Origin: the human T2T-CHM13v2.0 reference genome, Homo sapiens
Assembly: GCF_009914755.1 (NCBI RefSeq)
Contig: NC_060930.1
DNA length: 64,000 nt
Strand: one strand, 5' to 3'
The translations under genes were made by a program, and so were the position numbers. The notes under the pieces are model-generated. The model worked only from the letters and a program-made list of their open reading frames with translations, was not told where the DNA came from and did not search any database. Shown piece after piece: positions 6,338-9,400 of this stretch (position 1 is the stretch's first letter; each line of letters starts with the position of its first letter).

Positions 6338-6400
6338 AGACCATCGAGGCTAGGAAGAAACTGCATCAACTAACGAGCAAAATAACCAGCTAACATCATA

Positions 6401-9400
6401 ATGACAGGATGAAATTCACACATAACAATATTAACCTTAAATGAAAATGGGTTAAATGCTCCAATTAAAAGACACAGACTGGCATTTCGGATAAACAGTC
6501 AAGACCCATCAGTGTGCTGTATTCAGGAGACCCATCTCACATGCAGAGACACACATAAGCTCAAAATAAAGGGATGGAGGAAGATCTACCAAGCAAATGG
6601 AAAACAAAGGTAGGGGTTGCAATCCTAGTCTCTGATAAAACAGACTTTAAACCAACAAAGATCAAAAGAGACAAAGAAGGCCATTACATAATGGTAAAGG
6701 GATCAATTCAACAAGAAGAGCTAACTATCCTAAATATATATGCACCCAATACAGGAGCACCCAGATTCATAAAGCAAGTCCTTAGAGATCCACAAAGAGA
6801 TTTAGATTCCTACACAATAATAATGAGAGACTTTAACACCCCACTGTCAACATTAGACAGATCAACGAGACAGAAAGTTAACAAAGATATCCAGGAATTG
6901 AACTCAGCTCTGCACCAAGCGGACCTAAAGACAGCTACAGAATTCTCCACCCCAAATCAACAGAATATACGTTCTTCTCAGCACCACATCGCACTTATTC
7001 CAAAACTGACCACACAGTTGGAAGTAAAGCACTCCTCAGCAAATGTAAAAGAACAGAAATTATGAGAAACTGTCTCTCAGACCACAGTGCAATCAAATTA
7101 GAAGTCAGGATTAAGAAACTCACTCAAAACCGCTCAACTACATGGAAACTGAACAACCTGCTCCTGAATGAATACTGGGTACATAACAAAATGAAGGCAG
7201 AAATAAAGATGTTCTTTGAAACCAATGATAACAAAGACACAACATACCAGGATCTCTGGGACACATTTAAAGCAGTGTGTAGAGGGAAATTTATAGCACT
7301 AAATGCCCACAAGAAAAAGCAGGAAAGATCTAAAATTGACACCCTAACATCACAATTAAAAGAACTAGATAAGCAAGAGCAAACATATTCAAAAGCTAGC
7401 AGAAGGCAAGAAATAGCTAAGATCAGAGCAGAACTGAAAGAGATAGAGACACAAAAACCCTTCAAAAAATCAATGAATCCAGGAGCTGGTTTTCTGAAAA
7501 GATCGACAAAATTGATAGACCACTATCAAGACTAATAAAGAAGAAAAGAGAAGAATCAAATAGATGCAATAAAAAATGATACAGGAGATATCACCACCGA
7601 TCCCACAGAAATACAAACTACCATCAGAGAATACTATAAACACCTCTACGCAAATAAACTAGAAAATCTAGAAGAAATGGATAAATTCCTGGACACATAT
7701 ACACTCCCAAGACTAAACCAGGAAGAAGTTGAATCCCTGAATACACCAATAACAGGCTCTGAAATGGAGGCAATAATTAATAGCCTACCAACCAAAAAAA
7801 GTCCAGGACCAGATGGATTCACAGCCAAATTCTACCAGAGGTACAAGGAGAAGCTGGTACCATTCCTTCTGAAAGTATTCCTATCAATAGAAAAAGAAGG
7901 AATCCTCCCTAACTCGTTTTATGAGGCCAGCATCATCCTGATACCAAAGCCTGGCAGAGACACAATAAAAAAAGAGAATTTTAGACCAATATCCCTGATG
8001 AACATCGATGCAAAAATCCTCAATAAAATACTGGCAAACCAAATCCAGCAGCACATCAAAAAGCTTATCCACTATGATCAAGTGGGCTTCATCCCTGGGA
8101 TGGAAGGCTGGTTCAACATACACAAATCAATAAATGTAATCCAGCATATAAACAGAACCAAAGACAAAAACCACATGATTATCTCAATAGATGCAAAAAA
8201 AGGCCTTTGACAAAATTCAACAACCCTTCATGCTAAAAACTCTCAATAAATTAGGTATTGATGGGACATATCTCAAAATAATGACAGCTATTTATGACAA
8301 ACCTACAGCTAATATACTGAATGGGCAAAAACTGGAAGCATTCCCTTTGAAAACTGGCACAAGTCAGGGATGCCCTCTCTTACCACTCCTGTTCAACATG
8401 TTATTGGAAGTTCTGGCCAGGACAATCAGGCAAGAGAAATAAATAAAGGGTATTCAATTAGGAAATGAGGAAGTCAAATTGTCCCTGTTTGCAGATGACA
8501 TGATTGTATATTTAGAAAACCCCACCGTCTCAGCCCAAAATCTCTTTAAGCTGATAAGCAACTTCAGCAAAGTCTCAGGATACAAAGTCAATGTGCAAAA
8601 ATCACAAGCATTCCTATACACCATTAACAGACAAACAGAGAGCCAAATCATGAGTGAACTCCCATTCACAATTGCTACAAAGAGAATAAAATACCTAGGA
8701 ATCCAACTTACAAGGGATGTAAAGGACCTCTTCAAGGAGAACTACAAAGCACTGCTCAACGAAATAAAAGAGGACACAAACAAATGGAAGAACACTTCAT
8801 GCTCATGGATAGGAAGAATCAATATTTTGAAAATGGCCATACTGCCTAAAGTAATTTATAGATTCAATGCCATCCCCATCAAGCTACCAATGACTTTCTT
8901 CACAGAATTGGAAAAAACTACTTTAAAGTTCATATGGAACCAAAAAAGAGCTGACATTGCCAAGAGAATCCTAAGTCAAAAGAACAAAGCTGGAGGCATC
9001 ATGCTACCTGACTTCAAATTATATTACAAGGCTCAGTAACCAAAACAGCATGGTACTGGTACCAAAACAGAGATATAGACCAATGGAACAGAACAGAGCC
9101 CTCAGAAATCATACCACACATCTACAACCATCTGGTCTTTGACAAACATGACAAAAACAAGCAATGGGGAAAGGATTCCCTATTTAATAAATGGTGCTGG
9201 GAAAACTGGCTAGCCATATGTAGAAAGCTGAAACTGGATCCCTTCCTTACACCTTATACAAAAATTAATTCAAGATGGGTTAAAGACTTACATGTTAGAC
9301 CTAAAACCATAAAAACCCTAGAAGAAAACCTAGGCGATACCATTCAGGACATAGGCATGTGCAAGGACTTCATGTCTAAAACACCAAAAGCAATGGCAAC

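What the first reader, a model, noticed from the sequence alone, without database searches (positions are those of the whole stretch)
6350..6435. The same ORF2 codon-4 nonsense mutation in both full-length L1s
Seen: both read ATG ACA GGA TGA (G at 6411; C at 15357 on +) within an identical ~86-bp window. Established: the L1 consensus is ATG ACA GGA TCA (MTGS). This C>G is not a CpG hotspot, and a stop here would block cis-retrotransposition, so inheritance from active parents is unlikely. Inference: conversion copied a knockout allele between neighbours, so inverted pairing can spread inactivation between L1s. A similar isolated shared variant is KALL instead of KPLL (8749 / 13011).
Basis: partly seen in the sequence, partly recalled or inferred. 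Interest (0 to 1): 0.75.

Follow-up and report, generated by a model that had tools for sequence, protein, structure and literature searches.

The report
Neighbouring jumping genes swap stop mutations
Two back-to-back human LINE-1 jumping-gene copies carry the same rare early stop mutation, likely because one copied a short patch of DNA from the other, but both copies are broken in several other places, so the swap probably changed nothing here.

Summary
In detail: both L1s read ATG ACA GGA TGA inside an 86-bp identical run. The allele is rare (33 of 4,484 exact-motif copies) but no rarer than the other two changes at that base (31 and 31). Its carriers span all age classes, so it is recurrent decay, not an inherited lineage. 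The 86-bp run alone is not evidence: 74% of unlinked old-by-young pairs have one as long. Conversion is still the likely cause of the sharing (about 0.8). The pair has a 461-bp identical tract and a two-marker micro-tract at KALL. Genome-wide, 6 other neighbour pairs within 50 kb share a rare allele, against about 0.55 expected. The 'knockout' reading fails here: copy A has 14 other ORF lesions and copy B has 4, and the direction is unresolved. The proposed mechanism has better examples elsewhere. A codon-684 stop probably moved from a truncated neighbour into A. On chr20, an inverted pair shares a codon-4 TAA within a 525-bp identical tract, and in one copy it is the only ORF break. Conversion between neighbouring repeats is known; this is a new L1 instance.

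The parts
4285..4300 (+). 5' target-site duplication of element A (16 bp)
   Evidence: 2 exact matches in the window, 0.01 expected
4313..10434 (+). L1 copy A, near full-length, older age class (L1PA6/7-like; label recalled, not tested against subfamily consensus sequences). 15 ORF lesions: ORF1 start lost, 5 stops, one 8-bp deletion; ORF2 2 stops, 6 frameshifts
5066..5198 (+). About 125-130 bp of 5'UTR present in A and absent in B, matching the segment lost between L1PA3 and L1PA2/1
   Evidence: PMC5860796 passages
6350..6435 (+). 86-bp run identical to B 15333-15418, bounded by diagnostic sites; candidate micro-conversion tract
6410..6412 (+). ORF2 codon-4 TGA in A (ATG at 6401)
8283..8692 (+). 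Conversion block shared with copy C (9 differences in 409 bases; 9 shared rare alleles). Includes the ORF2 codon-684 TAA at 8440, also in C at 21623; markers at 8433 and 8677 point C to A
8722..8774 (+). KALL micro-tract, at most 53 bp: shared 8749 G, and old-type C at 8760 also in B (13000); likely A to B
9338..9798 (+). 461-bp tract identical to B 11961-12421, with shared private alleles at 9360, 9488 and 9775; recent conversion, likely A to B
9799..10156 (+). Remnant of an older young-type patch in A (young alleles at diagnostic sites 9614-10137; 11 differences from B in 358 bases)
10432..11296 (+). A': second, old-type L1 3' end of about 865 bp joined to A's poly-A tail, inside A's target-site duplication
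11296..11311 (+). 3' target-site duplication of A plus A'
11314..11327 (-). 3' target-site duplication of B (14 bp)
11328..17345 (-). L1 copy B, near full-length, young age class (L1PA2/3-like; label inferred). 5 ORF lesions: ORF1 stop at 16060; ORF2 stops at codons 4, 736 and 926; a 2-base deletion near 15162
15356..15358 (-). ORF2 codon-4 TGA in B
17346..17359 (-). 5' target-site duplication of B
19649..23422 (-). L1 copy C, 5'-truncated, older type than A, inverted relative to A; shares 18 rare alleles with A and none with B; does not reach codon 4

Best explanation
Both inverted L1 copies carry the same rare codon-4 stop, which likely arose once by ordinary decay and was then likely copied to the neighbour by a short non-allelic gene conversion, probably without effect because both copies carry other breaks. 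Shown: A and B are separate insertions of different age, each with its own matching target-site duplications; they have exchanged sequence elsewhere (a 461-bp identical tract); A has also exchanged with copy C; both copies carry other stops and frameshifts. Inferred: the codon-4 patch is a conversion of at most 86 bp (about 0.8). The likely route is repair of a break or stalled fork in one copy using the nearby inverted copy as template, resolved without crossover. Direction is open and leans slightly A to B, by A's twofold mutation load and the direction of the other two A/B tracts.
For: The allele is in 33 of 4,484 copies, equal to the other changes at that base. All 31 other carriers were fetched and are spread over the whole age ladder. 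A and B fall in different clades at 162 diagnostic sites and have separate duplications. The 461-bp identity compares with a maximum of 207 in 107 unlinked pairs. KALL has two markers 11 bp apart. Two shared transversions against 0.116 expected. Six other same-allele neighbour pairs within 50 kb against about 0.55 expected, P about 2e-5; 4 of these are isolated alleles between copies 91-94% identical, P about 0.002, or 0.02 if the expectation is doubled. Other lesions: 14 in A and 4 in B; about 7 of A's are expected to predate B, P(none) about 7e-4. Neighbour conversion within about 10 kb is reported for Alu.
Against: The 86-bp run holds only one rare shared allele plus one weak CpG marker (6374; 3 of 10 old copies also have C). 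Its length is ordinary. Unlinked pairs share at least one rare non-CpG allele in 28-52% of cases. Two of the six allele lists gave no pair within 50 kb. The pair density comes from only the first 100 chr1 copies, and older, more mutated copies may cluster. The site was chosen after the fact. No ape orthologue was available (no relatives held).
Confidence: 0.75

Rival explanations
1. Coincidence: the same C>G arose independently in A and in B.
For: The same change recurs in 31 unlinked copies; there is no second rare marker inside the run; P(at least one chance-shared transversion somewhere in 4.1 kb) is 0.11; the run length is ordinary.
Against: Two shared transversions, not one (P about 0.006); proven exchange in the same pair; roughly tenfold genome-wide excess of neighbour sharing.
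Confidence: 0.15
2. One reading: conversion from A delivered the first inactivating lesion to a still-intact B.
For: The other two A/B tracts lean A to B; B has few lesions (5); L1 proteins act mainly in cis (PMC5860796 passages).
Against: B has 4 other stops or frameshifts, so codon 4 is first about 1 time in 5 before counting missense changes; direction is unresolved; A to B tracts include a very recent one (0 differences in 461 bases). ORF2 translation is AUG-independent (PMC4091050 passage), so a codon-4 stop being a complete null is assumed, not tested.
Confidence: 0.06
3. Both copies inherited the stop from a stop-carrying source element mobilised in trans.
For: Two unlinked carriers (L015, L027) also carry the KALL allele, more than the roughly 0.2 expected.
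Against: A and B differ at nearly all of 162 age-diagnostic sites; carriers span the tree; A shares only 3 rare alleles with L015 and 2 with L027, within background; the allele is no commoner than the non-stop change at the same base.
Confidence: 0.02
4. Assembly or polishing error that copied bases between the two arms.
For: The arms are similar and lie close together.
Against: The arms differ at 318 of 4,137 positions over most of their length; the tracts are mosaics with graded ages; the same pattern occurs at other loci. Raw reads were not available.
Confidence: 0.02

Closest known systems
Non-allelic gene conversion between neighbouring Alu elements (Aleshin and Zhi 2010, seen only as cited in PMC6598467 and PMC8230782)
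   Same: Distance-dependent sharing of non-diagnostic mutations between nearby repeat copies; mosaic diagnostic sites; old copies can overwrite young ones (12 cases, PMC8230782 passage).
   Different: Here the copies are 6-kb L1s, the shared alleles include ORF2 nonsense codons, and sharing is seen out to 46 kb, beyond the roughly 10 kb reported for Alu.
LINE-1 (L1PA) non-LTR retrotransposons
   Same: 5'UTR, ORF1 (PF02994, PF17490, PF17489), ORF2 with endonuclease and reverse transcriptase (PF03372, PF14529, PF00078), poly-A tail, target-site duplications.
   Different: Both copies are decayed and mosaic; A carries a second 3' end inside one duplication pair.
Inversions from crossover between inverted L1s (recalled; no paper read)
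   Same: Inverted homologous L1 arms close together that exchange sequence.
   Different: The duplications of both elements still match end to end and the young-type patch in A has no reciprocal old-type patch in B, so there is no net inversion or reciprocal swap.
Pseudogene-to-gene conversion that transfers nonsense alleles (recalled general class)
   Same: A decayed paralogue donates a stop codon to a neighbour (C to A at codon 684).
   Different: The recipients in this window were very probably already inactive, so there is no loss of function.

Membership tests
LINE-1 (L1PA) | ORF1p and ORF2p (endonuclease plus reverse transcriptase) domains in order | tested here: met
   on B's open stretches (2 of 3 stretches matched Pfam; the C-terminal one matched none); A is colinear with B at 92%
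LINE-1 (L1PA) | Poly-A tail and target-site duplications | tested here: met
   for A+A' and B; none evident for C
L1PA subfamily labels (A = L1PA6/7, B = L1PA2/3) | Match to subfamily consensus diagnostics | not testable with these tools
   No consensus library. Relative age from the tree, private divergence 2.8% versus 1.3% and the 5'UTR segment; the labels themselves are recalled
Retrotransposition-competent L1 | Intact ORF1 and ORF2 | tested here: not met
   15 lesions in A and 5 in B
Non-allelic gene conversion (461-bp tract) | Tract of identity far above background with shared private alleles between independent insertions | tested here: met
   0 of 461 differences; null maximum 207; 3 shared alleles absent from about 30 background copies
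Non-allelic gene conversion (codon-4 patch) | Several linked markers transferred together | tested here: inconclusive
   One rare allele plus one weak CpG marker; the support is statistical
Non-allelic gene conversion | Non-reciprocal transfer | tested here: met
   A is young-type at 9614-10137 while B stays young-type there; duplications intact
Non-allelic gene conversion | Orthologues show the recipient's earlier state | not testable with these tools
   No related genomes are held for this window
Inverted or tandem duplication of one L1 | Uniform high identity and shared ancestry along the arms | tested here: not met
   Different clades and separate duplications

The most novel reading that the evidence does not exclude
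Neighbouring L1s routinely trade short patches, so a decayed copy can hand a stop codon to a young full-length neighbour and end its coding capacity: a position-dependent way to kill (or rescue) L1s. The chr20 inverted pair would be a caught example: two independent young insertions share a codon-4 TAA in a 525-bp identical tract, and in one copy this is the only break in either ORF.
Probability: 0.35. Interest if true: 0.55.

Novelty: new member of a known kind. Interest (0 to 1): 0.3.

Why it matters
At this locus it matters little: two dead L1s share one more lesion. The wider point is that rare alleles, stops included, are shared by nearby L1s roughly ten times more often than chance. That biases dating and subfamily calls of clustered L1s. 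It also means an L1's fate may depend on its neighbours, which can be tested directly with ape and pangenome assemblies.

Tried and rejected
The 86-bp identity as evidence: rejected (P about 0.28 by formula). A stop-carrying source lineage: rejected. An elevated C>G load in A or B: not seen (13 of 106 and 5 of 51 private changes, like other copies). Conversion between A' and B, the closest arms: none (0 shared rare alleles in 859 bases, longest run 40). A' as a recent duplicate of A's end: rejected (21 differences in 264 bases, like unlinked copies at 20-30). Net inversion: rejected by matching duplications. Direction in the chr20 pair: unreadable. Two pairs beyond 50 kb (77 and 106 kb) were fetched, showed nothing beyond the single allele, and were left out of the count. 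The list (first 100 of 366) was not counted because it is partial and the alleles are common. A larger random background of full-length copies could not be obtained; the background is 38 copies, 31 of them chosen for carrying the stop, so position 6411 was excluded from the shared-allele null counts. Alisch 2006, Wei 2001 and Aleshin and Zhi 2010 were not held. Literature searches (listings only) showed no paper on stop transfer between neighbouring L1s or on this locus; most subscription journals are not covered, and no supplements were read.

Full report
Observation. Both elements read ATG ACA GGA TGA, with G at 6411 and C at 15357, inside an 86-bp identical run, 6350-6435 / 15418-15333. The shared KALL base at 8749/13011 is also real.

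Anatomy. A (4313-10434, +) is followed directly by a second L1 3' end, A' (10432-11296), and one 16-bp target-site duplication encloses both. B (17345-11328, -) lies tail to tail with its own 14-bp duplication. C (23422-19649, -) is a 5'-truncated copy that does not reach codon 4. In a tree of 42 sequences (A, B, C, A' and 38 fetched copies), A falls among old copies, B among young ones and C among the oldest. Private non-CpG divergence is 2.8% in A and 1.3% in B. A has about 125-130 bp of 5'UTR that B lacks, matching the segment lost after L1PA3 (PMC5860796, passages seen). Subfamily names beyond that are recalled. So A and B are independent insertions of different age, and matching duplications rule out a net inversion.

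Is the allele special? No. Of 4,484 exact 32-mer matches, 33 carry G, and 31 each carry A and T, counted by eye from the list of 62. I fetched all 31 other G carriers. They are spread from the oldest to the youngest branches, with the 3 common-allele copies nested among them. Two carriers also have the KALL allele but share no haplotype with A.

Is the sharing more than chance? The 86-bp run is not. In 107 unlinked old-by-young pairs the longest run has a median of 95 bp, and 7 of 69 pairs reach 86 bp over this site. The run stops at diagnostic sites 6349 and 6436 and contains one weak CpG marker. Unlinked pairs also share at least one rare non-CpG allele in 28-52% of cases. Three things nevertheless favour conversion.

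First, this pair has demonstrably converted: 461 identical bases at 9338-9798 (null maximum 207), with three shared alleles absent from about 30 background copies. The simplest reading of the markers is an old young-to-A patch (9614-10156; 11 differences in the 358 bases not overwritten) followed by a recent A-to-B event.

Second, outside that tract A and B share two transversions where 0.116 are expected (P about 0.006, before selection). At KALL (68 of 10,849 copies) B also has the old-type C at 8760, seen in 0 of 13 young copies. This points to an A-to-B patch of at most 53 bp; 12 of the 68 carriers have that C.

Third, neighbour sharing is in excess genome-wide. Reading six rare-allele lists by eye (33, 62, 83, 76, 68 and the first 100 of 123 copies), and excluding our pair, 6 pairs within 50 kb share the same rare allele. 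About 0.55 are expected from a pair density of 13 per 100 copies. Two lists gave none. Two of the six pairs are 97-98% identical (chr20, chr7); four are isolated alleles between copies 91-94% identical, like ours. P is about 2e-5 for six and 0.002 for four, or 0.02 if the expectation is doubled for age clustering. Four are inverted and two direct, too few to show an orientation effect. I put conversion at codon 4 at about 0.8.

Did it spread inactivation? Not here, most probably. A has 14 other lesions and B has 4. Any A/B exchange postdates B's insertion, by which time about 7 of A's lesions are expected (P of none about 7e-4). If the stop went from A to B, it was B's first break about 1 time in 5 at best. 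Direction is unresolved. That a codon-4 stop is a null follows from cis preference (PMC5860796, passages) but is untested; ORF2 translation is AUG-independent (PMC4091050 and PMC5972666, passages).

(a) A and C share 18 rare alleles, against 0-4 for C with most unlinked copies; the three oldest copies give 9-16, probably through ancestral alleles. A dense block at 8283-8692 includes the ORF2 codon-684 stop, and A carries C's older-type bases at 8433 and 8677, seen in 0 of 8 copies of A's clade. So a stop likely moved from a truncated copy into a full-length one, which was probably dead already. (b) On chr20, two independent young inverted L1s share a codon-4 TAA and four other rare alleles in a 525-bp identical tract. 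In one copy ORF1 is open and ORF2 is open for 1,271 codons after the stop. Direction is unknown.

Mechanism. Shown: independent insertions, non-reciprocal patches of several ages, other lesions. Inferred: breaks or stalled forks repaired on a nearby homologous L1 without crossover, with tracts from under 53 to at least 461 bp. Unexplained: the closest arms, A' and B, show no exchange.

Comparison with what is known. This works like, and on the testable features is a member of, non-allelic gene conversion between neighbouring transposable elements. That is reviewed in PMC6598467 (parts 1-3 of 4 read) and shown for Alu in PMC8230782 (passages), which includes old copies overwriting young ones. 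Searches (listings only) gave no paper on stop transfer between neighbouring L1s; the library lacks most subscription journals, so absence from print is not established.

Verdict. Observation confirmed; conversion likely; knockout effect at this locus unlikely (about 0.06). New member of a known kind; interest 0.3. The chr20 pair is the lead worth following.

Noticed in passing
L001 (1889-7896, -) and L003 (927-6959, +); G000:C20 about 55.23 and 55.25 Mb: Head-to-head young L1 pair with separate target-site duplications, 97% identical, with 610- and 525-bp identical tracts and many shared private alleles. Both carry a codon-4 TAA; in L003 it is the only stop or frameshift in either ORF.
   Followed up: partly
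window 8283-8692 and 21370-21783: Copy A shares 18 rare alleles (7104-9148) with truncated copy C, including the ORF2 codon-684 stop; markers point C to A. This is a better-supported stop transfer than the one reported.
   Followed up: yes
window 4285-11311: One target-site duplication encloses full-length A plus a second old-type 3' end joined at an internal A-rich tract. Either a template switch in one insertion or a later insertion into A's tail; not resolved.
   Followed up: partly
window 10432-12186: A' and B form a near-palindrome (92%, tails a few tens of bases apart) yet show no conversion, while the more distant A does.
   Followed up: partly
L015 (C4) and L027 (C15): Two unlinked copies carry both the codon-4 stop and the KALL allele, like A and B; no further shared haplotype; unexplained, possibly chance.
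   Followed up: partly
G000:C16 64.77-65.36 Mb (L028-L030): Three of the 33 stop carriers lie within 600 kb on chr16; regional C>G enrichment there is recalled, not tested.
   Followed up: no
L052/L053 (C2 30.64-30.65 Mb): Inverted L1 pieces 8.7 kb apart, 99.5% identical over 622 bases; conversion or local duplication.
   Followed up: no
window 26997-28387: A further 3' L1 fragment (D) on the + strand, 88% identical to A and B; not analysed.
   Followed up: no
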